Below, in pieces: positions 24,580 through 56,226 of a stretch of 64,000 bases of DNA. The notes under the pieces were generated by a model. That model saw nothing but the letters and a program-made list of their open reading frames with translations, had not been told where the DNA came from and did no database searches. Position 1 is the stretch's first letter; each line of letters opens with the position of its first letter. A program made the position numbers and the translations under genes. Origin of the DNA: Marsupella aquatica (taxonomy: Eukaryota; Plantae; Marchantiophyta); the NCBI GenBank assembly GCA_973895155.1, contig OZ316891.1, positions 9,363,875-9,427,874 of the forward strand. The letters are read 5' to 3'.

Positions 24580-26216
24580 GTGTAACTCCCTCTCATCAGA
24601 AAGTGAAGAAAACCTGATGGACGGCCAAGGGGAATATATTCTGAGTTTTCTTTGGAGGAGGGTTCAGGCTAGAACTTCATACCAGACCTCCTTCATAGTA
24701 CCTAATTTCTTCCCGAAAGAAGGTTACTTCCAGGCAACAGATTATGTGAATAGCAAGTGTGGCCCAAAATGTTTACATGTAGGTGCCTCCTCTCAAAATG
24801 TTTACATGTAGATAACCTGTTTTCCGGACAGAATTTACTTTCCCAGTCCTCCCTTCCAAGTGTCCCCTCTTGTATTTACATACCTGTTGGCTCCTCCCTT
24901 ACTTTTCCCCCTCCCGTCCATATGTATGTTCCTAGGTATTGTGACTTAGTTACCTAGCTTACGGCCATTTGACTACACGCACTACAAGTGACCGAAGTGG
25001 CAAAATGTTTGCATTAGCTCAGTGCGCACTTAGGTTGTTTTTTTCCCAAATCTTCACTCATCATGAATTTATTTTTTGTGAGTTTGTGCGAAAATATTTT
25101 TGAGCGAAACATCATAATATTTGACACTCCAACAATTTGCTCATATTGTCGTCAGAGGCTCTCTTAGGTAGAGGAAAATGTGACAAAATTTGCTAAATTA
25201 CATATTTTGTGGAAGCCCCTGGCACAAAAGATGTGATGGAAATTTAGTTTATCAATAAGCTTATTACACACTCAAGTTTTATTTCGGGAGTCCCTTCGTA
25301 CGTCTTGGTTCCAAATAAAATGTGACTTGTAAGGGCTAAGGAGGGACTTGTAAGGGCTAAGGAGGGTTAGGTACCCATCAGGTTTCCAAATGAAAATATG
25401 ACTTGTAAGGGTTAAGTAGGTTTACCCATCTTCTGTTTTGTTTGTCATAATTATGTGCTATTGAAATGTAAAGTCGAGATTTCAACTAAGTTGTTTGATT
25501 ATTCTTTTCTCTCTTTGTCATGTTATGCAGTCCTTCGCTTTCATACTTTCCTATTCACTTTTTAAAGATTCTTTCCTCCTTGTTAACTTAAAAAGTTTAG
25601 TCAGGGTTTCCAAGATGCAAAATAAAATCATGTTCGCCCTGAAATGGAAACAGGCAGGTGGGCAACATCTGAGTGGGACCCATGGGATAGTAATAAATGA
25701 GTTCCCAGCAACCTTCAACGTGAATAGGTTGGAGGTGCAAGTAGGTTATGCCATTTGAGACAACATTGTCACCTGAGTAGGTTCTGTGTGTGTGTGAGGG
25801 GGGCAGTAGATTACGACATTCAGGACAACACTGTCACCATGCGAAGCAAGCAACTGAAACTATATGGTCACAACCTACAAGTATTTTGAAGCTTGTGACC
25901 ATGCTATTCCTGGGTGGGGTCCAGATTTGGGGTTACAGTTGACCTCGTGCGACATTGGGGGCCACACTATCATCACAGTCATATAGCTTTGGTTGTGAGG
26001 AAATAACCAGGGAGATGACCAAACATATGTGGTCACATCAGGGATTCAGGCTGAACAATATGGTCCTGACAACATCGTGTACAAGACATTGTGGGGCCAT
26101 TTTTTATAATATGGTTTCAGACAATACGGTTTGGGGCCATTTTCAGGCCCCCTCACTTTGTTCAACTGAACTAAAGTTCAGCCAATAACTACAATATGTA
26201 GTTGCAAAGGAGCATG

Positions 26217-26606
26217 GCCAAGGGATGTATGTGGAACAAATCCCAAATCAACAATTACTGAGAATTACTGCCACTAGTGGAAATCCCTAATCTGCCACAC
26301 TCAAACGAAAAAAAGTGATTAATATACCAGGGTTTACACCTGCTGCCAAGGGGTGTATGTGGAACAAATCCCAAATCAACAATTACTGGCTAGAGCTCAA
26401 ACTAGTAGAAATTCCTAGTCTGCCACTCAAACTAAAAAAGTGATCAATATACCAGGGTTTACACCCGCTGCCAAGGGGTGTGTGTGGAACAAATCCCAAA
26501 TCAATAATTACTGAGAATTACTGGCTAGAGACCAAACCACTGGAAATTCCTAATCTGCCACTCAAACAAAAAAAATTGATTAATATACCAGGGTTTACAT
26601 CTGCTG
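26217..26606. repeat. Tandem repeat, ~125-135 bp x3
   Basis: Units start GCCAAGGGrTGT..GTGGAACAAATCCCAAATC (26217, 26345, 26470) and end ATATACCAGGGTTTACA. Confidence 0.9.
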
Positions 26607-27234
26607 GTACGTACTCTTGAAGCCATATGTAAGCTGAAGTACAGTGAGCCACAAAGCTATGGGCAATGCCTCCTACTGGCCTAAAATTTCGCAAGCCTTG
26701 CACTCCTTGACTCCAGCCATCCTGCCCTCCTCCAAGAAAGGAGCCATCGAGGTCAAGGCTGACCTTCACCCTTGATAGAAAATTCAATGAACCGGACTTT
26801 GCTCAACTATACTGTAATAAGGTACATCCAAAAGGTGCTGGGGAACAGGGCAACTAAGGTAGGAAAATATGGTTGATACTCTCCATTGGTAGGGGCTCTG
26901 TGGTTTGATATTGTCTGTTAATTCATTTATATTTGGCCCTTGTGTCACCAGTGTAGTGCATGACATATTTGACTGAGCCTATGCTTTTGAACAAAACATT
27001 GATGTGAAGTGATGGGAGTAGCCCCACACTCTTGCGTTGACACTCATGCATCCCAACCCATGTTTACAGATGCGTCAATTACTCATGTCCACAATTTGGA
27101 CATACTTTCAACAAATTCCAATATACAACTGGTAAGTTGTTTCAATGGAAGGCTATGATAGTTCATGGTTGTGATGGATGGAATATAATTGGTAAACCAC
27201 ATAATCTAGCATATGTTTTGAGGCTGCTATAATG

Positions 27235-27835
27235 GTGAATCCACCTTTCAGATTTTGTCTCATTCATATTTTGTGTCAAGTATTTTAATTTTAATGTGCC
27301 TTAACAAGGTAAATCATTTGTATTAATTTGATTTTGAATTAAGTTTAGGACCCCTCTTAATTTTAGTGAAGATAGAGTATTTTGAATGTATTTGGCTCCC
27401 CTCATCAAGGTTTAATCTTTCCTTTTCAATCACTCCTTAGTGAATTCTCTTTTTTCTCATGAGAGTGTAAGAAATGAATTTGATCAATGTGAACATCTGG
27501 TGTATTAAGTTCCCTTCATGGTTTACTTTGCAAAATTTATGGTTTTAATTGAGTTGAATGACATTACCTAGAAGCAAGTGAAAATCTGTACTGTATGTGC
27601 ACAACTCAACTCTTTAGTACCTTTGTACTTTCTTGGTCATAATGTGATTTTATGTGCATATATTTTACATGTCCCTATTTAAATGAATTACATAACTCAA
27701 CTCTTTAGTATCTTTGTACTTTCTTGGTCATAATGTGATTTTATGTGCACATATTTTACATGTCCCTATTTAAATGAATTACATATCACTAGAAGACAAA
27801 AAAAGAGACATGTTCCAGGATGAACATGCTATATT
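27235..27835. repeat. Dispersed AT-rich repeat, copy 2, with an internal ~90-bp tandem duplication (~27604-27784)
   Basis: Colinear with 10931-11500; AACTCAACTCTTTAGTA...AAATGAATTACATA occurs twice in tandem. Confidence 0.7.
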
Positions 27836-32407: not shown

Positions 32408-32904
32408 AGCTTTTTGTTAACCTGTCCCCCAAACTACTCGATATGATTAAAGTGCCCACCCAAGCAAAATTAATTATTAACCCGTCCCCCATTTTGTATT
32501 GAGGTCAGTATTAACTCATATATGAGTTTCCTTGCCATGTGACAATTCACTATTGGCTAGCCTTAACAAGCCACCACCACCCTCGCCCCCCCTTCCCCAT
32601 TGCAAGGCACAATTGTAGGTCCAGGAGGGGCAAAAATATGTTATTTTTTGCTCCATGCTCCCCTCACAAAACCCCACACTTTTGGCCCTCATTTTTACTC
32701 AGGAAAATAATAGCTGGGAAGGGGGGACAACGGGGTGACAGCGGATTATGGCTAGCCAATACTAACATGCTACGTGGCAACTGGAACCCGTATACGAGTT
32801 AATACTGACTCAAATAAAAAATTAAAAGTGGATTGATAATTAATTTTGTTTGGGGGAGCATGTTAGTAATATGAGTACTTTGGTGAACAGGTTAGTAAAA
32901 TGCT
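32408..32904. mobile_element. Fold-back / MITE-like element with ~150-bp imperfect terminal inverted repeats
   Basis: Left arm TAACCTGTCCCCCAAACTACTC...CAAAATTAATTAT...GTCAGTATTAACTCATATATGAG...TATTGGCTAGCC pairs with right arm GGCTAGCCAATA...CCCGTATACGAGTTAATACTGAC...ATAATTAATTTTG...GAGTACTTTGGTGAACAGGTTA. No clear TSD. Confidence 0.7.
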
Positions 32905-33116
32905 TAAAAGCATGAAGCCTACAATATTAAGCTACAAAAGGTCCTAGTTTTGGGGTCAGCTGTAATTCTTTGTTTCTTTGCTTCTTGGCCTCTCTTGGCC
33001 CTTTGGTTGTCCCCCCTTATTGGGTCTTTTGCCTAGGATCATGGTTGGGCGCCCTTTGTTTTAGGCAGTTAAAAAATATTATAAAGGGCACAAATATTAT
33101 AGAGGGCACACTCATG

Positions 33117-33394
33117 ACCCTGCATCAAATCTACACCGCATTAATGTGCTCCAACTATAGCGGCACCCCGTACGCTGCCTATCACGACATCCAATGCGGC
33201 CTGCCCGTTCCCCCGACCAGACGTCGGTTTATGTTCTACCATTTCTTCTTTGACTGCCTCAATTGCGTTTCCGTCCATCATCCGTCCATTTTGAATTCGG
33301 GCGGGAGCGCGAACCGAGTCCACGATCTTGCCAACACTACCCTCCCCTACCCCGTCTTGACAGTCAAGTGTTGTCGAGAGCACAGAAGTGCTTG
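33117..33394 (+). repeat. MULE left terminal inverted repeat (~280 bp)
   Basis: Reverse complement of ~47332-47648 with scattered substitutions (e.g. AAATCTACACCGCATTAATG / CATTAATGCGGTGTAGATTT; GACAGTCAAGTGTTGTCGAGAGCAC / GTGCTCTCGACAACACTTGACTGTC). Confidence 0.92.
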
Positions 33395-35474
33395 ACATGG
33401 CATGCAATGGTGAGACATTGTAGGGTGGTCCGCTTTGTTTCGTCGTCATAAATAGTCAATGTTCTGTTGCTGATCGTGCCTTGCTGAACCTGTGATGCTG
33501 TGCGTTTTGATGAGTATAATCATCAATGTTTTGCCGCTGATCGATTGTGCGTTCTTCAACCTGTTTCTATGGTGGGCAGAATACAACTTTGAGGTAATTG
33601 TGCGGTTCATTGCTAGTAACTTGAGGCGCTCTGTACTGTACAAGCAACTTTTGGATGTCTCCCACCTTGCAATCAGTCGCGGAACTCGACTACCTTAACA
33701 CTTAGCTCCGGCACCGCTGACTCCGACGCCGAGCTCCCTTATGGTCCAGGCCTGAATAGGCCATCCGAGGAGGACTTAGCATGGGGAGACTTGTGGGCAA
33801 TGAGACGTGGCAAGGGGCCAAGCTGGGGACACATAATAAGGACTTGGACTAGCCTATGGCTGGTCGGGTCAAGGGGAAATGGGTCGGGCTCAAGGATGAC
33901 CGTCCGGACCGTCAGATGGACTTTGAGTTCTGAGGGCTTGGGACTGAGCTCCTCTTGGGCCCAAGGCCAATGGAGTTGACGCCATTGGCAATGGACGCTC
34001 GGGGCGCAAGTTGTGGCCCGATCCGGGTTGGGCCAATCGGGGGCCCCGAGCGGCGATCAGACGGTCTGAGGGCCTAGGCATGAGCACTGGGTCGGCCCGG
34101 TCACAACGGACTAAGGCACTTTGCTTGCGGATGCCTATCAGGAAAGTTATGGGCGTTGCCAGTTGGTGGCCGCCCATTATGCACAATGGGATCCGGGTTG
34201 GGGGCCAAATGTTTAGGGACCAAAGCTGGTCCAGGGGTGGCAGGTCTCCAGAAGCATATATGAGGGGAGTGGTGTCTCCCTGGGGGCTAAGGCCGAACCA
34301 AAGTCGTGAGCCGCGGCGGTCGCGACACTAAGGGAAACCGCCAAACAAAAATGGTGATATCTTCCCAACGGGAAGTCCGTTGGAGGACTTCTTGGGTACG
34401 TTGGAAAGCTCTTGAGCAGGGCTACGCCCTTGTGAGCTCAGATGGGTCCAGGGGTGCCATGGGTTCTTGTGGTTTGCGGGTGTTAGCTCGTCCGCTTGCC
34501 AAATCCTGCCGAACAGCAACCAAGCCGCGTTCAGCCTCCCAAGGGAACTTGCGTTGGGGAGACAAGGCCAAGTAGGTATGGAGGCTGAGTCCCAAGGGCG
34601 CTCGGTCTCTAGACCATCAGTGGGGCAAACCGGGAGCGGTTGTTAGAGTTGGGGCCATTCTGGTCCCAACGTGTTGAGACAAGCTTGGGACAAACTTTAG
34701 GACAAGCTATGCTATTTGGGCCATGAGCATGTCCTAGGGTCAGGGCGGTCAGTTGGTGATAGATAGGTACGAGGGGGAACCCGGGCCGCACCCAAGGAAG
34801 GAGTTGTTCTGGATGAATAGTGGGCGTGGGTTATGGTTTTGGCTTATGGCGTCAGGAGGACCTATCACTGACCTATTTACCAACGTCTGTTGAGCTTGAG
34901 TTAGGATGCTAGACTGGGCGAGTTCTAGATCCGGAGGGGTTACTCACCGAGGTGCTTGGTTGTTTGTGCAGACAGTGAGGACCGTTGAGTGGCGGTCGTG
35001 TAGGTGAGCAAGTGCGGTTTTGTATGAGAGTGGCTGCAGGTGGTGCTAGAGGCACTTGGATGCTTGCTCGAGGTATTCCGTGGAGGCGTTTGGGCACCAA
35101 GGGCACTTAGGCGCAAGTGCTAGGATTGGTGAGGGCGCTGGGTGGCGAGGTCCACCACTCAATCTACATCTTCATTGTGGGGGGTTTTGGGCTTTACAAA
35201 CGGTGTTGCGTTTTTTCCTCATTTGCAAATAGTGTGTCATTGTTTAGGTTCTATCACGTTTTTCCTTCATTTGGTTTCGAAACTCAAGCTTGACAACTGA
35301 CTCGGACATCCTGCTCAAGTAAGCAATCTCATTCAGTTTATCGCTATTGCATGTCATACGAGTACTTTGTCTCTAGTGTTACCAAATCGATTGTTTCAAT
35401 GTTGCTCCTAACCCTTATTTCAGATTGACAGTTTATGTTCTACTCATTGCTGCAAATGTACTGTCATGTAGGGA

Positions 35475-38399
35475 ATGGAGCCAAATCGGCAATGTGTTGT
35501 AGGGCCTAGGAAGGGGAAGCCTCCTGTTCCACCGGAGGCAGAATGGGAGAAGTTCCCAATAGCCAAGATCCACAAACATTGCATGCGAGCTAAAAATCCA
35601 TCCCATAGAAGAACATTAGGGTCAGGTTTTCTTTGCAAAATCATGACACTCAGATGACTCATGTCAACACTTTGTGAAGAAGCATGCTTTTTGGATCACA
35701 TGCGATCAGTACATCGCATGAATCCATAACCGTGTTCGGTTGGTCGTCCCAAAATGGCAGCACGCTAGAGGTTTGTAGCTTTGATTCAATCATTCTGCGT
35801 TCATTTCATAGACAACTACTAGTTCATGTTCTGGTATGGATTGATTAATTACTCCTGGTTTATGTTTTGCTATTCAAACAATGGTTTGTGTGTGCCTACA
35901 GGAATCAACTGAGTACGGCAGCCATGATTCACAACAAAGAGTTAACTTTGGGTTCCTACCCTGCACGAGTGTGGAAACTCAAGCGACAATGAATGTCATG
36001 GTTGCTACGATGGGTGAATGGCCTCAAGTTAGCTCATGAAGGGGATGAGACAACATGGGTTCTGAGTAAGGTCACAGAGCGGTACAATGATTGGAGGAAA
36101 TCTCAAGAGTTCACCAGCATGCTCACCGCTGTGAAATCAAACATTCTTGCATTCTGGGAAAATCATAGTCCCAACATTGATCTAGTGGAGATGCGAGCTA
36201 GGGTATGTGCAATGCAGTTTATGTTGTGTTGATATCGGGTAAGTTCATTGTAGTTTATGTTGTGTCGGTACCGGGTACTTGAAATCTAGTTTATGTTGTG
36301 TCGAGAAGGGTATGTGAATTGTACTTTATGTTGTATTGCTATAGTAATGCAGTTTTGGTAGTAAGTTTTGACATATGAAATGCATCATGGTCATAGGCAA
36401 TGCTTCCAAAAGATGTGGACGAATGGAGAAGTGACAATGGGATGCCCCCAAGTGGATCTTGCCCACTCTGATTTGAACGCTGACAAGATTGTATTTAAGA
36501 AGCGTGTCATTTTTTAGAAGGAGCCACCTCCAAAAACTAGAGCAAAGGGTAAGGGTAAGGGTAAGGCCCCATGTAAGAAGCCTGCTAAGAATTCTGAAAC
36601 ATAGAAGCAGACATGGCCAAGAAGCAGTCAAGGGCCAGGAAGGCTCAAACGCAAGTTCAACAGAGACAGGGCTTGAGGTCTAGGACCAAGGCCACACTGG
36701 GAAGGAACACAATTGAAAGCCAGGTTAGGCACATTCATATGCTATCTATTGTGGCATTGATGTTCCAAGCAAATTAATGTTCTTTCCTTTGTATTATGGA
36801 ATGCGACTCTTTCTACTTGTGTGCAGGCAAAAGCTGTAGTTCCTGACAGATCGTCTACATGGAAGAGAAGGCGTGTACCAAACACCCAAGAACCAACTAA
36901 GAAAAAGCAAAAAAACATCAACAACACTTTCCATGTACCTCACATTGTCTTTGCCTTCATTGCAACACCTCCTATCCTATTGCAATTTTGGTGTTTGTCA
37001 CATGTTCTAGACAGACGACAATGACAACATAGATGAAGCTTCAAAAGAAAGGGCTGGAGATAGGGCAGACATTGATGGGGCCACAAAAGATGGGGCAGAG
37101 GATGCCACTAGTGAGCATGCTTCACAAGAACAGGTTGGACGGATGATGATGATGGGGCCACAGAAGACAAGGCAAATTATGATGGGGAGACATAAGAGGG
37201 GCCCAAGATGACAAGGCAGAGGATGATGGGGCCACAGAAGATGGGGCCCAACAAGATGGGTCCACAAAAGATGGGGCCCAACATGATGGGTCCACAAAAG
37301 ATGGGGATGAAGATTATGGGCCACAGAAGACGAGGCAGAGGATGATGGTGTTACAGGAGATGGGTCCACAGAAGACGGGGCAAAGGATGATGGTGTCATA
37401 GGAGATGGGCCCACAGAAGATGGGGCCCGAGAAGAAGCTTCACAACAAGTATCTTCAGAACAAGACAGCCAAGAAGCCATAGAAGAGGGTAAATTTGCAG
37501 AGGAACAGGAAGGAAAAGAAGGAGAACCTACAGATGAAACTCGTCTTGAGGCATATGTCAAATGCTTGTCGGAAATTAAGGTGAGGCTATAGTCTGTGTT
37601 CTTTCCTGTTCAATGCCATTTGCTCTTGTTATATTCCCAAATCCATTGTCATGCGTTATGTTCTTGCAGGGAAGGGAAAAGCAACAACACACTAGCCGAG
37701 CAAAGGTGTCTGGCCAAAAAAAACAGGCAAAGAAGACAAAGAAGGTGTCTTTCCTCAATGAAGAGCACACCAGTGCACCCCTACCTGGTCCAAAATCATG
37801 GACTAAGATGAGATGGACCCAAGGATTGGGGAAGATCATAACACATCACGTTGACAAATTGACCAAAATTATTCCTCCCTATTCAGACTTAGTTCTGGAT
37901 GGGGTTACTATTCCATTCATTGACACCTATAATGTTGGAGGCAAATATAGTAGGAACACCTGGTTGCCTTTACATGCTGCAAGGCGCAAGATCTTCAGCA
38001 GCAGGGAATATTTGGCATTGGGTTTATCACACAAGGTAATCACCCTTCGGTTGTAACAATCTGCTCAACACTTAATTGATGTTTTGCAAATGTCCTAGCC
38101 GTATGTGTAATGGTTTATGTTTTGTGGTGCAGAAAAATTGTTGTGCCTTTTCGACCTATTCATGAAGATCATCCATGGCCGGGGTACCTTTTTGTGTGGG
38201 TCGGCCCGGATGGCATCCCAATTCTACCAAGGCATGTCGATTGCATACTCGCAAATCGCCATACCCCTCATCGATCTTCAAATTAAGAAAGCCTTGGGAC
38301 TTGTCCAAGCATTGGGGCTCAGATGAAGTTTGCAAGTTCCCTCTCCTGAAATTGGATCTTGTGTCCACAATAGCCTTCGTGGAAGCGTTTCCTATGTAA
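35475..38399 (+). pseudogene. MULE accessory gene of unknown function (multi-exon, disrupted)
   Basis: Exon-like blocks bounded by GT/AG: ~35475-35770 (MEPNRQ...FLCKI...DHMRSVH), ~35902-36202, ~36398-36723 (basic, KGKGKGK), ~36827-36933 (KRRR, KKKQK NLS-like), ~37011-37580 (acidic DGATED repeats), ~37670-38035, ~38133-38399 (Cys/His/Trp-containing C-terminus). Several in-frame stops and frameshifts. Confidence 0.65.
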
Positions 38400-39704
38400 A
38401 GTGAACTGCCAGTTGGCAACTCTCAATACAAAGAATTTTCCATATAATGGTGTAATGGTTGATTGTCCCCTCCCATAGTTTGAGAAAATGATGTTTCACA
38501 CTTGTACAGATTGTTATGAATGGTAGCCAAAATTGTGTGTTCGCCAACGCACTTGTCATGCCTTGAACAATAATAAAGTCAACCTATCTTGAACAAGAGC
38601 TGTATCCTTTATGTTTTGACACACCAGTATATTTCTGACGAGGGCAGGTTGATGTTCTATTTACAACCTTTAATGGTTATGCAACCGACATCTCCAAACG
38701 CGTGCAAGTCATGGTTTATGTTCTGTCATGAACATACTTGGGTTTATGTTCTGTCATGGTTTATGTACATAGTGGTTTATGTTCTGTCATGAACATACTT
38801 GGGAGCCTTGGTTTGTGAAAACTCTGAACAACATGTAGGCAAACTCTTGTGTGCTATAAGTAGTTTATCCCCTACCTAGAAACAAAGTCATTATGAGTTT
38901 TGTGTACTTTTGACCGAGTTATGGTTGATGTTTTGTCCATCTCTCACATATTATCTATAACACAAGACTCATTATCAATGTTTTGCCACACACATATATA
39001 CAAGGGCTACAACAAAGGGGTATGTTATTATATTATTCATCATCTTCCAAGAGAGGTACAACATTCAGATCAATATTGACATTCATGTCAATATCCCTAC
39101 CACCCCCTCGAAGATGAATAACACGGTTTGGAACTACTGGCAAGGACAAATTTGTAGTCCTTCGCCGCCGCTTGCCTTCCTGATATTCTGATCTTATCCT
39201 ACATAGATGTTGTCTATTAGATTCCCTAGTTACTTTACGCTTTGAAGGCACTGCACATGGCACCAAGCGTTCATCATATTGTATAGATGGTGCCTGAGTT
39301 TGCTGCCCTCTCTTGCCCCCATGGTAAATATCTATAACCCCTAAGCGATGCTTAGATGTCAGCCCTATAGGCCTTACAAATGCATCTGCAAGACCTATAT
39401 TGGGCTTCCCTGATCGAAAGCACTTTGATTTGTTGTTGAGCTTTCAGTTTGGTGAGTGTGACTTGTGATGCCAGGAATGCTTGTTCTGTGAGGTAGTCAT
39501 CTCCTTCAACAATTGCCAACTGCTGTTCAAAAATGTGGATTAAGTCTGCCCTCATAGTCGGCTCTCTATTCTGAAAAGCTACAGTAGGGTGTTGTAAAAT
39601 CTGAATCATAGACAATTATAGTAAGATGCTACTAAACATAAACAAGAATACTTGCAACAAACATTGATAGAACATAAACATAAGCATATACATAGTAAAC
39701 AAAG

Positions 39705-39994
39705 GTGCAGAACATAAACTTAAACAAACGCCATAAACCCTGAACATGTGCAGAACATAAACTTAAACAAATGTTGTAAACCCTGAACATCATGTGCAGA
39801 ACATAAACTTAAACAAATGCCGTAAACCCTGAACATGTGTAGAACATAAACTTAAACAAACGCCGTAAACCCTGAACATGTGCTGAATATAAACTTAAAC
39901 AAACTATGTAAACTTAAACAAAGAGAGATTTGCAGAACATAAACTTAAACAAACTTTGTAAACTTAAACAAAGAGAGATTTGCAGAACATGAAC
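39705..39994. repeat. Intronic tandem array (~43-bp then 50-bp units), about one AACATRAAC motif per unit
   Basis: GTGCAGAACATAAACTTAAACAAAyG..rTAAACCCTGAACAT x4, then two 50-bp variant units. Confidence 0.9.
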
Positions 39995-41360
39995 CTGTTC
40001 AGGTTGTTGGTAAATGTCTGTGTCCTCATGGACTCCGGTTGGTTGTCCTCCTTTCGGCTCTGTTTCTTCATGTTGAAGCAGTTCCAAATGGTCAATGCCA
40101 CCCATCAAAGTACCAAACCTGGACCCTAATTGTTGTACTAGAACACCTCCATCGAAGCCTCTAAATAAGAGAGCCTTGATCTGATGTTTACACATATTTC
40201 CCTCATCCGCCCATTTACAATCACAAGAAGGAAAGTTTGAGAATATATTCTGAACAATGTGCTCCTTCCCATCAGGCTTGCCACTTCTTACTATTGCTTG
40301 GTTGGGCAGGCTTGGATCAGGAAAATAGACTTTGTGGTATTTCATGGCATGCATGGCCTTGTGGAGGCTATTCAGGACAACCTCTTCCTTTTTGTAATTG
40401 ATAATTCTCCCCCTTGCTTTGCACCAAAGCTGGTACCAAAAGAAAGGAAGCATAACCTGGAACAAAGAAGTGACAACCCTGTCTAGACGCAGAGCTCCAA
40501 TGGACCCAATATTCCTCTTGATCATCTTCTTGAATGTTAAATGCCAAGCTTCAATTGCACCATTTGTATTCTGGTTGGCTCGAGGCATGTCTCAAACAGC
40601 CCTCATCCACTTTGCTGTGATTCCACAAATGCATAAAAACAATAATTAGTTGTAATCATGAGAAAACTCCAAGAAATATGCTTTACTCATTGCAAGGACA
40701 AATGAGTAGGAGGTCAGCAGAACGTGAACCTGTTTTGTGCATCCAAGTGTCTTCAAAATATGCTAGGAATCGTTGTTCCATGTGGTACTTTGCTTGGAAG
40801 GATCGCCACTTAACTTGCATGTCTTCCTCAGTATTGGCGTACATGGATCCCCTAGATCATCATTCATATCCAGAAGCTTGGTTCTATTTGGTACAATCTT
40901 GATCAAATTCTCCTTCCAAGCTCTGTATACAGAAACACGTGAGTGGGTTGGGCAGAACATAAACTTCATACGGCTAGTTACAAATGTGGTAACATTACTT
41001 GCAACACAAAATGTTTTCAATGTGGGAAAACATACCATCGAACATGCCAACTGCAAAAATAAATGGGGATATTGGGAAAGACAACTTTCAATGCGCTGAC
41101 TTCAGCTTGAGCACAGTCAATAATGAAGCAGCTAGGACTCCAATCAGGTTTTTGCGCCAACGCTGTATCCTTTATTGCCTTCAAAAAAGTAGCAATGTGC
41201 TCAGCTGATTCAGACTACTGGATGCACCATGCTATGGGTAATCCCATCTGGTGTTGATCAAAAGCAACGAGCGTGAAGAAAGGGAACTGCAACCGCACTG
41301 GGGTTAGAAAGGCGGAACATGAACTAGGAGATAAATTAAGTCAACTACATCGTGTAGTGA

Positions 41361-41890
41361 CATGGGCAGAACATGAACTATAATACTAGAAACAAGATAT
41401 ATGAAGAGCCAAACATGAACTACAAGACAAAAAATGAAATAGGTCACATGGGCACAACATGAACTATAATACTAGAAACAAAATATATGAAGAGCAAAAC
41501 ATGAACTACAAGACAGAAAATGAAATAGGTCACATGGGCAGAACATGAACTATAATACTCGAAACAAAATATATGAAGAGCAAAACATGAACTACAAGAC
41601 AGCAAATGAAATAGGTCACATGGGCAGAACATCAACTACAAAATATATGAAGAGCAGAACATCAACTACAAGACAAAAAATGAAATAGGTCTTATGAACA
41701 AAACATGAACTATAACACAAGGGATAGACACAACAAACATATGAAGAGGGCAGAACATGAACTACAACCCAGACACAAAATGAAGTCAATTGCATGGTGA
41801 AAAAGGTGTGATGGGCAGAACATGAACCATAATTGAAGGAACAAACACAAGAAAACATATGAAGAGGGCAAAATATGAACTATAAGACAT
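41361..41890. repeat. Intronic tandem array (86-bp unit, two AACATGAAC motifs per unit)
   Basis: Units start CATGGGCA at 41361, 41447, 41533 and 41619, then degenerate copies to ~41890. Confidence 0.9.
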
Positions 41891-43356
41891 GGAATGTAAT
41901 GAAATGGACATCCTGAGGAGATGAAATGCTAATTACATACCCCATATTTATTAGTTGCAAACGTACTATCTAACGCCAACACTGATCCATGAGATAGGGT
42001 GATCATCTGCGCTCTTTGCCAAGGTGACTGCAATGAAAGTATGAAATCCTGCTTTGGTGGGCCCGCCATGTACTCTTGTGAGAGAAGCACTCTCTCAGGA
42101 TACATCCCCATCCATTTGCGTATCGATGCCTGGTCATTGTCAGACCATAGCCAGGTCTCCTTGTCAACTTTTCGTTTGAGTTTTCGAAGATCTTGTTTAG
42201 AAACCAGGTCGTCTCTCCCATCAAAAGTTAGTGTCACACCAGGATCAGTGGTATTGTGTCCACAATCATCACCATCTCTTTCAAACTGCGATTGACAGTG
42301 GAGGTCATAAATATCAAGGACGGACCATCCTGCCCTCAATAAGTCCTCAAGGTGCTTCTGGACCTCTCTGGTCAACCATGGAGCAATGGTGCATTTTGGT
42401 CCCCAAGAGGGAGGCCCCAATTGTGGATCCCAATGGCCATGCACAATGTCCCCTCTCTGATTACAATGCTTTCTGCAATTGAAACACAGACAGAACATAA
42501 ACCACTACATACAAATGTGATGGTAGAGAGTAAAAACAACTATGTTGCACAAAATTAGGCAGAACCTAAACTTTAGCACATAAATTCATGTGAACATGGA
42601 CCCTGAAAGAGACTTGTCCGAGTAAGCATAATTAGACAGAATGCATCCTTGCCTGTTTATGTAGGAGAGCTGAACAACATCAGGGTTGGCTTTCATCCTC
42701 TTCGCAATGAAGTGACACCGACATCCTCGCTTGACATGGTTGTTGAATGCATTCTTACGTAGTCTAGGTCTACTCCCAACTCCTGATGTTGGTTTTGTTC
42801 CAGGAAGTGGAGGAATAGCTACGCTACGCATGTCTTCCTCTTGTGGGCCATAGGAACACCAAAAGATGGTATATTCTATCCAATCAGTGTTATTTGAATT
42901 AGATTTTCTTGAGGTTCTAATATGAAATGAACTCTCAAATTTTGGATCCTTTCTGCCCTCGCCATCTCTAAAATCAGTGAGACGGTTCCATGGAATGAGA
43001 GCTTGGTCATATGGGCTCCAAGCAATGTGTAGCGACGAAAATTTCCCAGCCGGTGGAATCTGTACGTACTCCCATGTTTCATGAATCATTGGATTACGCA
43101 AAGGCTCCCAACAATTATCCTGCCACGACGGTGGTAGAACATAAACTACAAGACAAATATTTCGGGTACAAAACTCACACCGCACGATTGGGTACAAAGC
43201 GCGTGCATTTGCATTGCAAGGGCAATTGAAAAAAAACGACGTGTTTGCACAGTAGTACCACCAACACAAAGACAAAGAGCACATGAACTGACAAATAACA
43301 GAAACATTTAGGGGGAAATGAAATCGGTGGAAATGAATAGCGTCATAACATGATAT

Positions 43357-43700
43357 TGTTGAGCATAGACGACATTCGTAACGGCAAGCCCATGAACCAT
43401 CCAACGCACAATAGTCGACACAAAGAGATACGTGGTTCACCTCCACATGAGGCTACGTCCACGGGAACACACAAGAGCTTTACTGCACTCTAGGCCGACC
43501 GGCCATAGCAAGCATCCACAGCACAAGCTCTCCCTATCTCTCAACTAGCTCCGTAACAATGAGCCTAAGTTCCACCAGGGTCTGACATCAGCCCTGGCTA
43601 TATACACAACAGCACTACCGCTAACATTAGCTAAGTCCTAACCTGAGTTAGACTAACTGGGGTTAGCTCATGAGTCACAAGACTAGAGCAATATCTAACA
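43357..43700 (-). repeat. Copia 3' LTR (344 bp)
   Basis: TGTTGAGCATAG...ATATCTAACA, adjacent to the PPT. Confidence 0.95.
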
Positions 43701-43907
43701 AACTCCCCCTTGACTCTTGTCTTGGGGATTGGACTAAATGCAACCATATGGAATCCTCAGCGGGAAGTTCTAGACAATCACCAAACCAGGTCTCCCCCTA
43801 AAAACCACAAGGATTAACTAAGGGTTAACTAGAACTAAGCCGTAGCCTAATAGGAATGAGTAATCCATATACAAATAGTCAAACATTGCTAAATAACTCT
43901 ACATGCA

Positions 43908-46791
43908 CTACAACTGCAAAACTTGCAAAGTAGCACGGTGTCTTGAGAAACTCTCCAAAGGAATCACTTTGGTAAAGGCATCAGCGGGATTGAGCTTTCC
44001 ATCAATCTTGACTAGCTCAAAAGTTTTATCAGACACTGCTTGCCTGATAAAATGGTACCTGATATCAATGTGCTTCACCCTGCTATCCATCACTTGGTTA
44101 GCAGCCAAGTGAAGAGCACTCTGACTATCACAGTTTAGAGTCATTTTGCCATGCTCTAAACCCATCTCCGCGATCAACTTGTCCAACCAAATTGCTTCCT
44201 TTGCAGCTTCTGCTGCTGCAACATACTCTGCTTCTGTAGTAGACTGAGATATGCACTTCTGCAAGGTAGATTTCCAACTGATACATCCTCCTCCAAGAGT
44301 GTATACAAACCCAGTTGTAGACCTCCTTGTATCCAGACAGCCTCCATAGTCAGAATCTACATAGCCAACTAACGTTCTATCTGATCTGTTATCAAATAGT
44401 AATCCATAGTCCTGTGTACCCTTCAGATACCTGAGAATCCACTTCACAGCTTCCCAATGTACCTTCCCTGGATTTGACATGAATCTGCTAACCTTGCCCA
44501 TCGCTAGGGCCAAGTCAGGCCTAGTACAAGTCATCAAATACATCAGACTGCCTACTGCCTTCTCATAAGGTATCTTAGCCATCAGACCTTTCTCCACAGC
44601 ATCCGTAGGAGAGAAAGCCGATGATAACTTAAAATGTGAAGCTAAAGGAATACTCACTGGCTTACAGTTTTCCATGTTGAATCGTGCAAGTACTTTCCTC
44701 GCATACTGGCCTTGACTCAAGCACAACTGTCCAGTATCAGAGTTCCTAAAAATCTCCATCCCTAAGATCCTTTTGGCCTTACCAAGATCCTTCATCCTGA
44801 ATTCAACACTCAATTTTGCCTTGAGACTATCAACCTCAGATTGATCTTTAGCCACAATCAGCATGTCATCCACATAGATCACCAGAATGATGAAACCAAA
44901 TACATCATTCTTGACTGATTTCGTACACACACAAGGATCATACACCATCCTTGTAAAACCTTGAGCAAGCATGAAATCATCAAACCGCTTGTTCCACTGT
45001 TTGGGAGACTGCTTCAATCCATACAAGGACTTGAGCAATCTGCAAACTAAGCTCTCTTGGCCCTTCTTCATAAAGCCTACTGGCTGTCGCATGAAGATCA
45101 TCTCTTCCAAGTTGCCATAGAGAAAAGCAGTAACAACATCCATCTGATCCATCACCAAACCAAAAAACACAATAAGCTGACACAAGATCCGAATTGTGGA
45201 ATACTTAGCCACCGGTGAAAAGACCTCATTGTAGTCCACTCATTTCTCCTGAGTGAACCCCTTGGCAACAAGCCTTGCCTTGTAGATCTTATCTCCACCC
45301 TCTGAAGGACTGTCCTTCAACTTGTAAATCCACTTGCTGTCCACCACTTGCTGACCTCTTGGAAGCTCCACCAGCTCCCATGTCTTGTTGTCACTCAAAG
45401 ATTGCAACTCCCTCTGCATTGCTGCATTCCACTCATACTTCTGCTCTGAAGCACAAGCCTCACTGTACGAAGAAGGCTCTCCTTCTTCCAAGATCAAAGC
45501 CATATCATCATCATCAGGTGCAATGTCAATGTCATCTAGCTTAGATGAGTCTGCCCATTGACCATACCTGGTAGGAGCTCTAGTAGAACGACTGGAAGTT
45601 CTTCTAGTAGATGACTCAGGCTGATCTGTTGCTGCTGCTGGTTGAATTTGAGGTACCCTAGCAACAATCTGCTCCTCTTATTCCATCACAGGAACCAGCT
45701 CCAAGCCCGGAGCTTCTCCACCTCTCCTGTCATGAACAACATCATGACTAATCTCCCCCTCAACCGGGTCCGGGATGGGAGATTTCCCCTTGTCAGTATG
45801 GGAGTCCTGAGAACTCTCCCCCTCCTTTGATGATCTGGACTCATTAAAGGACACATCTCTACTAACAATTAGTTTACAGGTTACTGGATCCCATAACCTA
45901 TAACCCTTCACACCTTTCTGATAGCCAAGGAAAATGCACTTCTTCGACTTGGACTCCAGCTTGGATCGAAGCTGGGAAGGTGTAAGCACATAAGCATCAC
46001 ATCCAAAAATCCTCAGATGTGAGTAATCTGCTGGACGCCCGTACCTCATTTCAAATGGCGTCTTGAATCCAATAGAACTGGATGGAGAAAAATTTACCAG
46101 ATAAGCTGCAGTGTTGACAGCTTCAGCCCAAAACTCATGTGGTAAGCATGATTGACTCAACATACTCCTCGAGCGGTCCAATAGTGTTCGGTTGAGTCTC
46201 TCAGAAACACCATTCTGCTGAGGAGTATAGCTTGTTGTGAGATGGCGGGTAATCCCCTGCTCCTTACAATACATTCCAAATTCCCCGGAACTGTATTCAC
46301 CGCCATTATCCGATCGTAGATATCTCACCTTATTACCAGTCTGATTTTCAACTTGGGCTTTCCACTCCTTAAAAGTGGCAAAAACATCAGACTTACTGTG
46401 TAGAAAATATATCCACACATACCTTGAGTAATTGTCTATGAATGTGACATAGTATAACCGTCCAGAATGTGAGGGAGTAGGGGCTGGACCCCACACATCA
46501 CTATGTACATACTCAAGTACCTCCTTGCTGGTGTGAGTTCCAACTCCGAAGGGTTTCCTGTGCTGCTTCCCTAGCACACAGTGCTCACAAAATTCCAACT
46601 TACAAGATTGCAAATTAGAAAGTAATCCTTTCTTCTGAAGAATAACCAAACCTTTTTCACTCATGTGGCCCAAACGGAAGTGCCACAGCCGGGCCGTCTC
46701 CTCATGAGATAAGGTTACATTGGCTTCATCACAAACTACACTGCCCTCCAAAACGTATAGATTGTTATGTCTCTTTCCCTTCAATACAACT
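43908..46791 (-). pseudogene. Copia pol (GAG-pre-integrase, integrase, RT, RNase H) in one frame with two nonsense codons
   Basis: LWHFRLGHMSEKG...CEHCVLGKQHR, VHSDVWGP, LRSDNGGEY, PQQNGVSER, YKARLVAKGFTQ, LYGLKQSPKQW, IYVDDMLI, GYVDSDYGG, KHIDIRYHFIR. Stops TAA 45678-45680 and TGA 45240-45242; the segment between the listed ORFs is open. Confidence 0.95.
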
Positions 46792-47173
46792 TGTTGAGCA
46801 TAGACGACATTCGTAACGGCATACCCATGAACCATCCAACGCACAATAGTCGACACAGAGAGATACGTGGTTCACCTCCACATGAGGCTACGTCCACGGG
46901 AACACACAAGAGCTTTACTGCACTCTAGGCCGACCGGCCATAGCAAGCATCCACAGCACAAGCTCTCCCTATCTCTCAACTAGCTCCGTAACAATGAGCC
47001 TAAGTTCCATCTCTCAACTAGCTCCGTAACAATGAGCCTAAGTTCCACCAGGGTCTGGCATCAGCCCTGGCTATATACACAACAGCACTACCGCTAACAT
47101 TAGCTAAGTCCTAACCTGAGTTAGACTAACTGGGGTTAGCTCATGAGTCACAAGACTAGAGCAATATCTAACA
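46792..47173 (-). repeat. Copia 5' LTR (382 bp, includes 38-bp tandem duplication 46971-47046)
   Basis: Matches 43357-43700 apart from about 4 substitutions (by eye) and the duplicated ATCTCTCAACTAGCTCCGTAACAATGAGCCTAAGTTCC. Confidence 0.95.
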
Positions 47174-47331
47174 GATATCAGGTGGCAATGGCAGAATCAC
47201 ACGCACCCTTTGCTTACAATGATGATCACGTTAAAAGTAGTGGCATCATAATCCTGACACTTCAGAATGAAGCACTCGTGAAGAATGAATCTACCATCAT
47301 TCTACCGTGAGCTCGTGTACAGGCGGTCCGG

Positions 47332-47648
47332 AAGCGCTTCAGTGCTCTCGACAACACTTGACTGTCGAGACGGGGCAGGGGTGGGTAGCGTTGGCAGGGT
47401 CGTGGACTCGGTTTGTGCTCCTGCCCGAATTCAGAACGGACGGACAACGGAAGGAAACACAATTGAGGCAGTCGAAGGAGAAATGGTAGAAAACAATCCA
47501 ACGTCTGGTCAGGGGAATGGGTAGGTCGCATTGGATTTCGTGACGAGCATTATATTGGGTGCCGCTAGTATATTGGGTGCCGCTAGTATATTGGGTGCCG
47601 CTATAGTTTGAGCGCATTAATGCGGTGTAGATTTAACGCAAGCAGGGT
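47332..47648 (-). repeat. MULE right terminal inverted repeat, with an 18-bp triplication (47551-47603)
   Basis: Inverted copy of 33117-33394; TATATTGGGTGCCGCTAG occurs three times in tandem. Confidence 0.92.
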
Positions 47649-49098
47649 CACTCATGCAAAAGCACCCGGGTTTGGCCAAAGCTAGCGCGTGACTGGGCGA
47701 CAGAAACAGCGTGATCAGCTGAGAGCCACCCACAAACTAATCATCAATACAGTAATCATTACGGGAGTAGTGCGTGCTCTGTCCTCCGAGCGACCCAGCA
47801 TTCCAGGATGCCGTGGAATCGTGGATGGATTCGTTCTTCAATGTCCAGGAGATAACTACGAGGAGAGAGTACAGCTGAACCAGAGTTGTTGTCGATTCTC
47901 TCCTCTCCTCTGCCCTCCTCACAATAGGCCTTCCCTTCCACCATCGTCATCATCACTGCTGTCGTCACTCTCGTCAACCCGATCCCCACCCTACCACATG
48001 GTTTCCCCTTCTTCGTCTGCCTCCTCTCTGCTTCTCTTCTCTCGTATGCTTTTGGTAAAGTTCAGCCCCTTCCTCCCCTTGCGTCGTCCAAAGGAAGGAA
48101 GGATTGAAGGAGAGGAGAGGAGAGGAGAGGAGAGCTTGAGGGAATTGTTCTTCGGGAATTCTGTGAGCCATACATTCTCAACAGACAGCCTCTGCTCTGC
48201 TGTGCGAGCAAGGAAAGGTTGAAACTACTGTAGGAACCCTCAAATCTGCTGGCCGAGCAAGGAAGAAGAACTAGAGAAGGTAGGAACTGGGAACCCTTAA
48301 AATCTGCTGTCAGGGAAAGGAAGGAAGAACCTGAGGAGGTAGGAACTAGGTACTACGAACCATTGTTCGGCGCATCCATTCATTGACATGGGCGGAAGAA
48401 TGAACGAGCGGGATTTCTTTCTAGCAAGAGGGCAGGTGTGACCCAGAGGCGGTGGCTTCCTCGCTTCACCACACTGCAGGTTCGCGGGCCAAGCTGAGGC
48501 CGCCTGCACGGGCCGTCCGATGAGGTTAGAATGTTTCAATTAAAACTAAAATCATACATATTTCTGACGGAGACGGTGACTTCGTTCTGAATAATTATAG
48601 CTCCAGAAAAGAAGTATCCTTGTGGGTCAATCTGAAAGAAGCTCAGGTTTGCTTGCCGCTATTGGGTGGAGGCATCATTCCTCCCTGTTGCAACGAACGT
48701 GCATGGGTGGTGCTGTTCGTCGGGGAGAGAGAAAGTGGGTCTGGAAGGGGACGGGAGGCATGTGGAGTACTCAAAGTGTAACTTGTCCTACTGGCCAAAG
48801 CTCCCCTTCGATCGCCAGCGACCTTTCTTTTGGGTAATCTTACCGCATGGTGACTACCTGAGCTGAAGTCCTCGCTGGTTGTATGCATGTGGTCTAGTTA
48901 CTGTGTGTGCTCTGTATAATTCGTATTTGACGCTTTCAAATAGGAGAGGTGCCACCACGGCTGGATAGTCTGGTCGTTGAGACAGGTATACCGGTCAATT
49001 AGGCAAGGAGAGAAGGGAAAAGCGGTGAGACAAAGGTGAGCAGGAGGACCCTGATGGTTTACTGCACAAGGATCGAATTGGAGTAATTTCGGGGAGCG

Positions 49099-54846: not shown

Positions 54847-55872
54847 GGCCGTAGGATAACCCATCGCTCTTAGAGGATTATGGGCTGTATTTCCTAGGGC
54901 TGTTAGCTCGGGGGATTACAACCCACGTACTCCAAAGTGGCCAAGGATTATTTTGTAGACACTAAGTGTATTTTTGTCCTACTTTTCACCAGAAAACTTT
55001 CAACCAAGTCTCTTAACCCTGAGGTAGGGTGCCCAAAATCTCATAACCTCCCTAAATTAGGCTGAGCAAAGAGTTAAGACCATCTCCATGAATTTTTTTA
55101 AATAACTTTCAACTTCATTGCCTTTTTTTAACAACTTTCAACTTCATTGCCACTAAAGATGTTCAAATTTAAAATGTTGCCAGTATTTTTTTGTATATAC
55201 AGATTTACCACGGTTTTCTCATGTGGCTACCTTGGTTACATTGGTGAACTTGCCATGCATATATGAAACGGTGACATATTTATAAATACCAAAAAAGCAA
55301 TGACATGACAATATTGTAAATTGGAACATCTTTAGTGACAAAATAGTTATCTTTAGTGACAGAAAATGATGGTCCCATGGACCACATAGTTGGTCTTTGA
55401 AACCCCAATGAACCACATTTCGCAAAATTTGAGTTTAATTGTAATAATTTGATGTTCATAAATTCAAATAATTTTTTTAGCTTTGAGGATGTGCTAGATG
55501 AGTAGTTAAGCTATACTTCCATCAAAGTGATTGTGATTCTTTTGGCCATTTTGGTTGAATTATTCATCATGGAATCCGGAGAGGCAAATTTTATTACATT
55601 AATTTTCATTGCATTAATATGAAATATTAGGGCTTGTGTGTTTTTGTGTCTCATCCTTCTCTACAGTAGTTGCCTTACCAGAGAAAAACTAAAAATTAAT
55701 TTAGGACTCATAATTATCAAATTATAAGCCCCAAACCCCCACGGACTACCAAATGTGGTTGACGAGAGCATTGTGTCCAACCTGGTGGTCCATACTGACT
55801 TCACTTTCTTAATAAGAAAATACTTAAAAGCTGAAATCTTGAATCAAAATGAAATTCACCAGAAGTTTAACT

Positions 55873-56226
55873 GGGGCCCCCAATCTCGCCTATGACGAGC
55901 AAGACCAGACTAGACCAGAGGCTCCAATCTCGCCTACTATGATCTAGACCAGACTAGACCAAACTAGACTAGACTAGACTAGACTAGACTAGACTAGACT
56001 AGACCAGAGGCCCCAATCTCGCCTATGACGATCATAAGCAGACTAGACCAGACTAGACCAGAGGCCCCAATCTTGCCTATGATGACCTAGACCAGACCAG
56101 ACCAGACCAGACCAGACCCGACTAGAGCAGACTAGACCAGAGGCACCAATCTTGCCTGTGATGACCTAGACCAGACCCGACCCGACCAGACCCGACCAGA
56201 CCAGACCAGACCCGACCAGACCAGAC
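55873..56226. repeat. Compound minisatellite upstream of SEC10: ~25-bp core x5 separated by variable pentamer runs
   Basis: Core GGCCCCAATCTyGCCTATGAyGA at ~55875, 55920, 56009, 56063 and 56142, separated by (AGACT)n, (AGACC)n and (CGACC)n runs. Confidence 0.9.

What the first reader, a model, noticed from the sequence alone, without database searches (positions are those of the whole stretch)
39033..43089. Transposase of a TIR/TSD-bounded element resembles the conserved angiosperm SWIM genes AT4G13970/AT1G60560
Seen: the protein contains ALIPWNRLTDF, EYTIFWCSYGP, KRGCRCHFIAKR, RDDLVSKQDLRKL, LSLQSPWQRAQMI, LALDSTFATNKY, GLPIAW, AIEAWH and CDCKWADEGNMCKH, and lies between ~280-bp TIRs with a TSD. 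From recall, these blocks match the Arabidopsis zinc-ion-binding/SWIM proteins AT4G13970 and AT1G60560 in order (ALIPYTRVDDF, EYILYWCSFGP, KRGCRCHFIVKR, RDDLL, LGIQTEWQLQQMI, CSCSWAEKGYICKH), which are annotated as low-copy host genes. Inference: this element represents the mobile progenitor lineage from which those genes were domesticated, separate from FAR1/FHY3 and MUSTANG.
Basis: partly seen in the sequence, partly recalled or inferred. Interest (0 to 1): 0.72.

Follow-up and report, generated by a model that had tools for sequence, protein, structure and literature searches.

The report
Mobile cousin of three plant genes
This is a broken copy of a multi-copy Mutator-type jumping gene whose enzyme is related along about 600 amino acids to three little-studied genes of flowering plants, which were likely tamed once from this transposon family, though from a different branch of it than the one seen here.

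Summary
Observation confirmed. The gene (six exons, 3 stops, 2 frameshifts) lies in a 14.5-kb element with 277/317-nt TIRs and an 8-nt TSD. It encodes a MULE transposase keeping D, D, CxxH, W and E. It aligns at 26-32% identity with three flowering-plant paralogue groups: A (AT4G13970-like), B (AT1G60560-like) and a third, C. It shares two exact intron positions with them; a FAR1-type protein gives 16%. None of 30 A/B/C proteins keeps all five catalytic residues, dN/dS is 0.05-0.33, and none of 17 loci has credible TIRs, so they look domesticated. A+B+C form one 100/100 group. Its nearest neighbour is a multi-copy yew (Taxus) protein, and a sister position for this element is rejected (AU p 0.0006 and 0.016). 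So this is a cousin, not the progenitor branch. The root is unresolved and no MUSTANG sequence was in the tree. New here: a decayed second gene, and 37 copies of an 11-nt motif confined to non-coding DNA and always on the sense strand, a VANC-like pattern. The scan already noted the same kinship in a moss genome (e1-7364688).

The parts
33109..33116 (+). left copy of the 8-nt target-site duplication
   Evidence: identical to 47649-47656
33117..33393 (+). left terminal inverted repeat, 277 nt
   Evidence: 237 of 277 aligned bases match the right arm
33675..35159 (.). nested high-copy insertion, likely a solo LTR, flanked by a 5-nt direct repeat
   Evidence: summed contig depth hundreds of times that of the MULE body, and loose ends at 33675 and 35159; flanks printed
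35475..38327 (+). second, decayed spliced gene (ORF2; about 7 exons, my prediction), convergent with the transposase; acidic 5-aa tandem repeat and basic tracts; candidate accessory (anti-silencing) protein
   Evidence: six GT-AG introns and exon frames; no Pfam family for the exon pieces scanned; 15-nt repeat
33227..38785 (+). 13 copies of the 11-nt motif GTTYATGTTCT (up to 1 mismatch), all on the + strand, all non-coding
39669..43288 (-). 24 copies of the same motif, all on the - strand, in every transposase intron and upstream, partly in 43-, 50- and 86-nt tandem repeats
42653..43089 (-). transposase exon 1: WRKY/GCM1-type zinc finger (C78, C123, C125; H148 and H157 in exon 2); no Pfam model
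   Evidence: model of homologue P0003 matches AFT2 (4lmg), Z 6.9, rmsd 2.4, 71 residues
41941..42472 (-). transposase exon 2, with first catalytic Asp (D314); the following intron is shared with groups A, B, C
41036..41286 (-). transposase exon 3, with D380 and C401xxH404; one internal stop and one at the exon junction
   Evidence: Pfam MULE PF10551, E 1.5e-7, above cut-off
40730..40922 (-). transposase exon 4, with a frameshift; the following intron is shared with groups A, B, C
39995..40614 (-). transposase exon 5, with W474, a stop, catalytic E493 and the SWIM finger (602-615)
   Evidence: Pfam SWIM PF04434, E 6e-4, 19.7 bits against cut-off 19.6
39033..39600 (-). transposase exon 6, poorly conserved tail with a frameshift
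43357..47173 (-). nested Ty1/copia element with an internal deletion, inserted upstream of the transposase start; LTRs 340 of 344 identical; 5-nt TSD
   Evidence: RVT_2 E 8e-51; contigs in 3 of 4 runs join 43351 to 47174, so sibling MULE copies lack it
47332..47648 (-). right terminal inverted repeat, 317 nt, with a 36-nt internal duplication
47649..47656 (+). right copy of the target-site duplication

Best explanation
This is a dead copy of a multi-copy Mutator-like (MULE) cut-and-paste transposon, and its transposase belongs to an unnamed plant MULE family from which three flowering-plant gene groups were likely domesticated in one event, from a branch nearer to a multi-copy conifer element than to this one. 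Shown: TIRs, TSD, exon structure, all catalytic residues, sibling copies, homology and shared introns, loss of at least one essential residue in every A/B/C protein. Inferred from Muta1 and IS256-family work: an intact copy would bind its TIRs through the N-terminal zinc finger, cut with the DDE core helped by the CxxH histidine and the tryptophan, and insert with an 8-nt stagger. Inferred: the host genes kept the zinc finger and SWIM finger, lost cutting, and likely act as DNA- or chromatin-binding regulators as FAR1 does. Inferred, weaker (about 0.45): ORF2 binds the oriented 11-nt motif arrays to keep its own family unsilenced, in the manner of VANC.
For: Mobility: TIRs and 8-nt TSD. Contigs 85-99% alike cover all 30 bins in all 4 runs laid; in run X3 the listed contigs identical to the window have depth 24-25 and variant ones 81-103, and variant contigs read open at four of the five breaks. 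MULE membership: Pfam MULE and SWIM; the model of homologue P0003 has the IS256 transposase ISCth4 as top match (Z 16.1, rmsd 3.3, 237 residues). Homology: exon 1 alone finds 70 proteins at E<=0.001 among 1.84 billion; the 20 looked up by name are from Riccia, Taxus, a clubmoss, a fern and angiosperms or are unnamed (10 more also unnamed or of these taxa), none named FAR1 or MUSTANG. Identity to 30 A/B/C proteins is 25.7-31.7%, local score 573-786 for 29 and 336 for one incomplete model, against 15.6% and 93 for the FAR1-type protein of L020. Two of the four introns common to 17 full loci (L026 is cut and shows three) fall at the same column and phase as introns of this gene; chance about 2e-5 under uniform placement. 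Domestication: 0 of 30 A/B/C proteins keep D, D, H, W and E together; mutating the matching His or Trp abolishes Muta1 transposition (PMC5225508, passages); dN/dS 0.05-0.14 in 6 scorable A/B pairs (1 of 7 saturated) and 0.14-0.33 in 4 C pairs; 14 of 17 long loci have no bracketing inverted repeat, and of the other 3, two were inspected and are separate MITE-like elements or AT-rich DNA and one is a 26-nt match; group C loci share neighbour genes. One origin: A+B+C 100/100 in two models, Taxus next; the Taxus cluster has 18 members at 90% identity.
Against: The root is not fixed: with the single FAR1-type outgroup (branch 3.8-7 changes per site) a root on the A+B+C stem is not rejected (p 0.28), so nesting of the genes inside transposon diversity is inferred, not shown. 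TIRs were shown only for this element. The Taxus and Riccia proteins are called transposon-like from copy number and diversity, and the Taxus model lacks the exon(s) with D2 and CxxH. Three of the 7 scorable non-A/B/C family members also lack an essential residue (P0003, P0022, P0033), so residue loss alone does not mark domestication. Two of the four angiosperm introns and three of this gene's five are not shared. Transposases also show low dN/dS. No MUSTANG, MuDRA or Jittery sequence could be obtained. Neighbour sharing for A and B was seen only between close relatives. The P0003 model is of modest quality (mean pLDDT 62).
Confidence: 0.75

Rival explanations
1. This element's own branch is the direct progenitor (sister group) of the AT4G13970/AT1G60560 genes.
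For: Two shared introns and 26-32% identity; it is the only member with demonstrated TIRs.
Against: It pairs with Riccia P0003 (100/100); Taxus P0027 is nearer to A+B+C; AU p 0.0006 (LG+G4, 17 rows) and 0.016 (LG+C20, 13 rows). Exon-1 ORFs of Taxus-like hits and locus L044 break at the first angiosperm intron position, which this gene lacks.
Confidence: 0.07
2. The direction is reversed or parallel: an old host SWIM-gene family and these transposons are sister lineages, or a MULE captured such a host gene.
For: Root unresolved; possibly domesticated-looking members exist outside seed plants (P0022, P0033).
Against: The gene is the element's only transposase, keeps the full catalytic set, and folds like IS256 transposases; capture would require regaining the CxxH histidine. 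Diverse members occur within one liverwort genome (4 Riccia proteins at about 29% to each other) and as 18 near-identical copies in yew.
Confidence: 0.1
3. Groups A, B and C come from two or three separate domestications of related elements, as reported for FAR1/FRS and MUSTANG.
For: Multiple exaptations are reported for MUG and FRS (PMC4948706, abstract and passages). A/B and C lost different residues (His to Arg against Asp to His).
Against: All three share the same four introns and form one 100/100 group with no transposon-like row inside.
Confidence: 0.2
4. The oriented 11-nt motif is bound by the transposase itself or acts on RNA as a splicing aid, and ORF2 has another job.
For: The motif always reads on the sense strand, two copies begin exactly at splice donors, and one lies in the left TIR. 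AtMu1c transposase activates its own family without an accessory protein (bioRxiv 10.64898/2026.08.24.746577, section 7).
Against: Arrays in introns, intergenic and terminal DNA, same orientation, spread by tandem repeats, plus an accessory protein with tandem peptide repeats, is the pattern described for VANC21 (PMC5735166, passages). AtMu1c binding peaks at TIRs, not introns.
Confidence: 0.45

Closest known systems
Flowering-plant 'SWIM zinc finger family / zinc ion binding' proteins: group A (P0023, P0032, P0071 Amborella, L051), group B (P0035, P0094, L061), group C (P0116 Hevea, L001-L017, L020, L026)
   Same: Same zinc finger, MULE core and SWIM over about 600 aa; two identical introns
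   Different: Host genes: no credible TIRs, low dN/dS, one or two essential residues lost; two further introns; this element is not their nearest mobile relative
Riccia sorocarpa KAL3701242.1 (P0003)
   Same: Nearest full-length protein, 47% identity, sister in every tree
   Different: Has Tyr at the CxxH histidine; its flanks could not be examined
FAR1/FHY3/FRS family
   Same: MULE core plus SWIM; precedent for transposase-to-regulator conversion (PMC8599713, passages)
   Different: Defined by PF03101, which none of 17 family members hits at E<=0.1; the one FAR1-type protein in hand is 15.6% identical and intronless over 662 aa
MUSTANG (MUGA/MUGB)
   Same: MULE plus SWIM, DDE decay, old angiosperm host genes (PMC3435246, passages)
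   Different: MUG has PF03108, with PB1 in MUGB, and all three domains in one exon; this family has neither domain and four introns across them
Muta1 (Aedes) and ISCth4 (IS256; PDB 6xg8)
   Same: DDE, CxxH, W and 8-9-nt TSD (PMC5225508); same core fold, Z 16.1
   Different: Different DNA-binding domain; 11% identity to ISCth4
VANDAL/VANC anti-silencing system of Arabidopsis (PMC5735166)
   Same: Short motif in introns, intergenic and terminal DNA, same-orientation arrays, tandem-repeat spread, accessory gene with peptide repeats
   Different: ORF2 has no detected similarity to anything; no binding or methylation data here; this element has long TIRs

Membership tests
MULE (Mutator) superfamily | Long TIRs | tested here: met
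   277/317 nt, 85.6%; published range 14-500 bp (PMC6446971, section 6 part 1)
MULE (Mutator) superfamily | TSD of 8-11 nt | tested here: met
   exact 8-nt repeat; one copy only
MULE (Mutator) superfamily | MULE domain with DDE, CxxH and conserved W | tested here: met
   PF10551 above cut-off; D314, D380, C401/H404, W474, E493; ISCth4 top fold match for P0003
MULE (Mutator) superfamily | Dispersed multiple copies | tested here: met
   variant contigs over the whole element and an empty Copia site in siblings; depth is not a copy number
MULE (Mutator) superfamily | Present-day transposition | not testable with these tools
   this copy is broken; no full sibling contig
FAR1/FRS | FAR1 DNA-binding domain PF03101 | tested here: not met
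   0 of 17 members at E<=0.1; exon 1 has no Pfam hit at E<=1; control protein of L020 hits at 3.8e-9
MUSTANG / MuDRA type | MuDR DNA-binding domain PF03108 | tested here: not met
   0 of 17 members; no positive control in hand
MUSTANG / MuDRA type | [quoted passage not shown] | tested here: not met
   four introns in A/B/C and in this gene across these domains
MUSTANG / MuDRA type | Phylogenetic placement among MUG or MuDRA | not tested
   no such sequence could be fetched
Domesticated transposase (groups A, B, C) | No TIRs around the gene | tested here: met
   14 of 17 loci none; 2 explained, 1 a 26-nt match; flanks 1.1-10 kb
Domesticated transposase (groups A, B, C) | Purifying selection with intact frames | tested here: met
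   dN/dS 0.05-0.33 in 10 of 11 pairs, 1 saturated; 18 of 18 spliced loci open
Domesticated transposase (groups A, B, C) | Loss of catalytic residues | tested here: met
   0 of 30 keep D, D, H, W, E
Domesticated transposase (groups A, B, C) | Synteny across distant species | tested here: inconclusive
   shared neighbours among group C loci; for A and B only between close pairs
Domesticated transposase (groups A, B, C) | Low copy number genome-wide and a host phenotype | not testable with these tools
   no plant genomes or mutants; loci came from metagenome contigs
VANC-type anti-silencing | Family motif dense in non-coding DNA in one orientation | tested here: met
   20 exact copies against 0.17 expected; 37 with <=1 mismatch, 0 in 4,764 nt of exon
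VANC-type anti-silencing | Accessory protein homologous to VANC | not tested
   no VANC sequence in hand; no Pfam hit for ORF2 pieces
VANC-type anti-silencing | Motif binding and loss of DNA methylation | not testable with these tools
   needs EMSA, ChIP or methylome

The most novel reading that the evidence does not exclude
A third, unnamed and undescribed family of Mutator-derived host genes, beside FAR1 and MUSTANG: three paralogues from one domestication older than the Amborella split, with an active site rebuilt in two alternative ways (Asp kept with His changed to Arg, or Asp changed to His with His kept). Its mobile relatives survive in liverworts and conifers, and the one here carries its own anti-silencing system, an unknown accessory protein plus strictly oriented intronic motifs.
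Probability: 0.4. Interest if true: 0.72.

Novelty: new member of a known kind. Interest (0 to 1): 0.52.

Why it matters
FAR1/FHY3 and MUSTANG are the two textbook cases of plant regulators derived from Mutator transposases. A further family, with two Arabidopsis members that my searches found barely mentioned in print, could be tested at once with existing knockout lines. A TIR-bounded relative that keeps every catalytic residue gives a before-and-after comparison for how a transposase loses cutting. Groups A and most of B keep DDE and lose the CxxH histidine, so screens that score DDE alone would misjudge them. The kind of event is known, databases already label some members 'MULE transposase domain-containing', and the scan saw the same kinship in a moss, which caps the score.

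Tried and rejected
Word-index protein searches with exon 2 and exon 1 found nothing and the profile search found only 2 proteins; these are sensitivity limits, as one search shows. PDB sequence searches gave no real hit. The viral-contig scan found no match. No whole genome is held, so copy ends and further TSDs could not be compared. No RNA holder was listed, which says nothing on expression. The 38-row tree finished only as a quick search and leaves the base open; the 17- and 13-row trees leave out near-duplicates and partial proteins, and the FAR1-type row. Rooting with the single FAR1-type protein failed. Two first splice reconstructions picked wrong sites and were replaced. Inverted repeats around L037 and L007 were rejected as TIRs. 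Zisupton/KDZ, recalled because of the 8-nt TSD and SWIM, was dropped: Pfam MULE, CxxH and the IS256 fold fit MULE. The Atlas feature search with P0003 listed two streptophyte clusters and then animal and fungal MULE clusters, but only 5 of the ten best named hits agree, so it is a lead only; ORF2 could not be searched there. Literature: 'At4g13970' gave 1 paper and 'At1g60560' 2, all unrelated by title and abstract start; seven other searches listed no title or abstract describing this family; supplements of PMC5715367 (10 files), PMC4948706 (2 files, 1 not searched) and PMC13547354 (3 files) lack both gene ids. Hoen and Bureau 2015 is not held, and Data S1 of bioRxiv 10.64898/2026.08.24.746577 (309 genes, 38 domestication events) could not be seen; either may already list these genes.
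Full report
Setting. The window is gene-rich plant DNA (an LRR receptor kinase, TYW3, an ALMT). The nearest named full-length homologue of the transposase is from the liverwort Riccia sorocarpa. An unreviewed note of this scan calls the genome a liverwort; I did not check that. No whole genome is held.

The element. The only long inverted repeat bracketing the gene is at 33117-33393 and 47332-47648, with 237 of 277 aligned bases identical. An exact 8-nt direct repeat flanks it. Inside lie, left to right: a high-copy, likely solo-LTR insertion (33675-35159), a decayed spliced gene on the + strand (35475-38327), the transposase on the - strand, and a copia element with 98.8% identical LTRs and its own 5-nt TSD (43357-47173). 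The two genes converge, each running inward from a TIR. Contigs of public runs that are 85-99% alike cover all 30 bins in each of the four runs laid, and in 3 of 4 runs they join across the copia site. In run X3 the listed contigs identical to the window have depth 24-25 and variant contigs 81-103. Depth is no copy number, but sibling copies clearly exist. They read open at four of this copy's five breaks; the fifth is not among the rows shown. CpG is depleted in both genes (observed/expected 0.35-0.36 against 0.59-0.60 in host regions), as expected of methylated transposon DNA.

The transposase. Six exons give an 867-residue read-through with three stops and two frameshifts. All nine quoted blocks are present in order. 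Pfam finds MULE and SWIM; exons 1 and 2 match nothing. D314, D380, C401xxH404, W474 and E493 are all present. In Muta1 the DDE, the CxxH histidine and the tryptophan are each required, and TSDs are 8 or 9 nt (PMC5225508, passages). A model of P0003 (17-row alignment, mean pLDDT 62) has ISCth4 of the IS256 family as best match (Z 16.1, rmsd 3.3, 237 residues), and its N-terminus matches the yeast factor AFT2 (Z 6.9, a middling score). AFT as a WRKY-GCM1-type finger is recalled.

The family. Exon 1 retrieves 70 proteins at E<=0.001 from 1.84 billion representatives. Of 30 looked up, the named ones are from Riccia, Taxus (one cluster of 18 members), Diphasiastrum, Adiantum, Amborella, Magnolia and eudicots; the rest carry no taxon. 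Some Ala/Gly-rich unnamed hits may be algal, which is a guess. A scan of metagenome contigs gave 80 loci (83 passed, the best 80 kept). Most sort into three groups; L044 and L075 do not. L051 holds all six motifs recalled for AT4G13970 and lies between HSF and F-box genes; L061 lies between a Kelch F-box and an enoyl-CoA hydratase gene. That fits my recall of the Arabidopsis gene order; no call gave the names. The window protein is 25.7-31.7% identical to the 30 A/B/C proteins and 15.6% to a FAR1-type protein found in L020. Seventeen full loci share four introns at identical columns and phases (L026 is cut and shows three); two coincide exactly with introns of the window gene, about 2e-5 by uniform chance, ignoring splice-site bias. 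None of 17 members scanned hits PF03101, PF03108 or PB1, the domains that define FAR1 (PMC8599713, passages) and MUSTANG (PMC3435246, passages).

Are A, B and C host genes? None of 30 keeps D, D, H, W and E together. A, the eudicot-type B proteins and L001 keep DDE and change the His to Arg. Most of C and three B proteins (grass-type by my inference) change the first Asp to His and keep the His; L026 has His and Gln. The zinc ligands of the N-terminal finger and SWIM are kept in the complete proteins. dN/dS is 0.05-0.14 for A and B and 0.14-0.33 for C. Of 17 loci with long flanks, 14 have no bracketing inverted repeat; two of the other three were inspected and are not TIRs, and one is a 26-nt match; the same test finds the window's TIRs. 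Group C loci share neighbours. Against: three non-A/B/C members also lack a residue, and genome-wide copy number was not testable.

Is this the progenitor? No, a cousin. In a 17-row tree (LG+G4) and a 13-row tree (LG+C20), chosen from 38 rows by dropping near-duplicates, partial proteins and the FAR1-type row, A+B+C are one side of a 100/100 branch, Taxus P0027 joins next (98/97; 95/96), and the window pairs with P0003 (100/100; 100/99). Holding the window and P0003 with A+B+C is rejected (p 0.0006 and 0.016). Amborella has group A, so the A/B split predates the flowering-plant crown (inferred). The root is open: with the FAR1-type outgroup a root on the A+B+C stem is not rejected (p 0.28). 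The direction from transposon to gene therefore rests on catalytic completeness, TIRs, the multi-copy Taxus cluster and IS256 ancestry.

An added feature. The motif GTTYATGTTCT occurs 20 times exactly (0.17 expected), all inside the element. With one mismatch there are 37 copies in its 4,466 nt of non-coding DNA, none in 4,764 nt of exons or in the nested insertions, and 3 in the 49 kb outside. All 13 in the left half are on +, all 24 in the right half on -. The exon calls for ORF2 are my own prediction. This matches the description of VANC21 targets (PMC5735166, passages). ORF2 has an acidic tandem repeat but no Pfam match. Notes on other Mutator elements of this genome, which report palindromic sites and ParB-methyltransferase genes (unreviewed), prompted this test. 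Binding by ORF2 is inference; the transposase itself or an RNA-level role are live rivals.

Novelty. MULE domestication is a known kind of event. Nine literature searches and three supplement look-ups found no description of this family. A 2026 preprint reports 38 domestication events in a table that I could not see (sections 7, 8, 23 and part 1 of 9 read), and Hoen and Bureau 2015 is not held. Other papers seen: PMC6446971 abstract and section 6 part 1; PMC5715367, PMC1702500 and PMC4948706 passages; the rest as listings only. The scan noted the same kinship in a moss (e1-7364688). Verdict: real, a new member of a known kind, interest 0.52.

Noticed in passing
window 16228-19200 (+): LRR receptor kinase in one uninterrupted 990-aa frame. 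It looks ERECTA-like by eye; ERECTA-family genes normally have many introns (recalled), so it may be a retrocopy or an intron-free paralogue.
   Followed up: no
window 32408-32904: About 500-nt imperfect inverted repeat (66%) just left of the element, possibly an old MITE.
   Followed up: no
window 33675-35159: High-copy insertion whose ends read AGT...ACT instead of TG...CA, with a 5-nt direct repeat; likely a solo LTR.
   Followed up: partly
window 43357-47173: Young copia copy that lacks its gag/protease part; its left LTR lacks a 38-nt duplication present in the right LTR.
   Followed up: partly
L001:32-2578: Intronless (likely transcript-derived) group C protein on a very short branch that keeps the first Asp and has Arg for the His; may represent an early-branching or non-flowering seed plant.
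   Followed up: partly
groups B and C (L018, L024, L031; L002-L020): His at the first catalytic position co-occurs with a retained CxxH His, and Asp with Arg, in two separate groups; could reflect a metal site against a salt bridge.
   Followed up: no
P0022 (Riccia) and P0033 (unnamed): Full-length members outside seed plants that lack the His or the first Asp; candidates for separate domestications or simply dead copies.
   Followed up: no
L020:852-2837 (-): FAR1-type frame with Asn at the second Asp and at the CxxH His, about 6 kb from a group C gene.
   Followed up: partly
window 55865-56381 and 24404-27781: Pentanucleotide-based and other tandem repeat arrays of unknown role.
   Followed up: no
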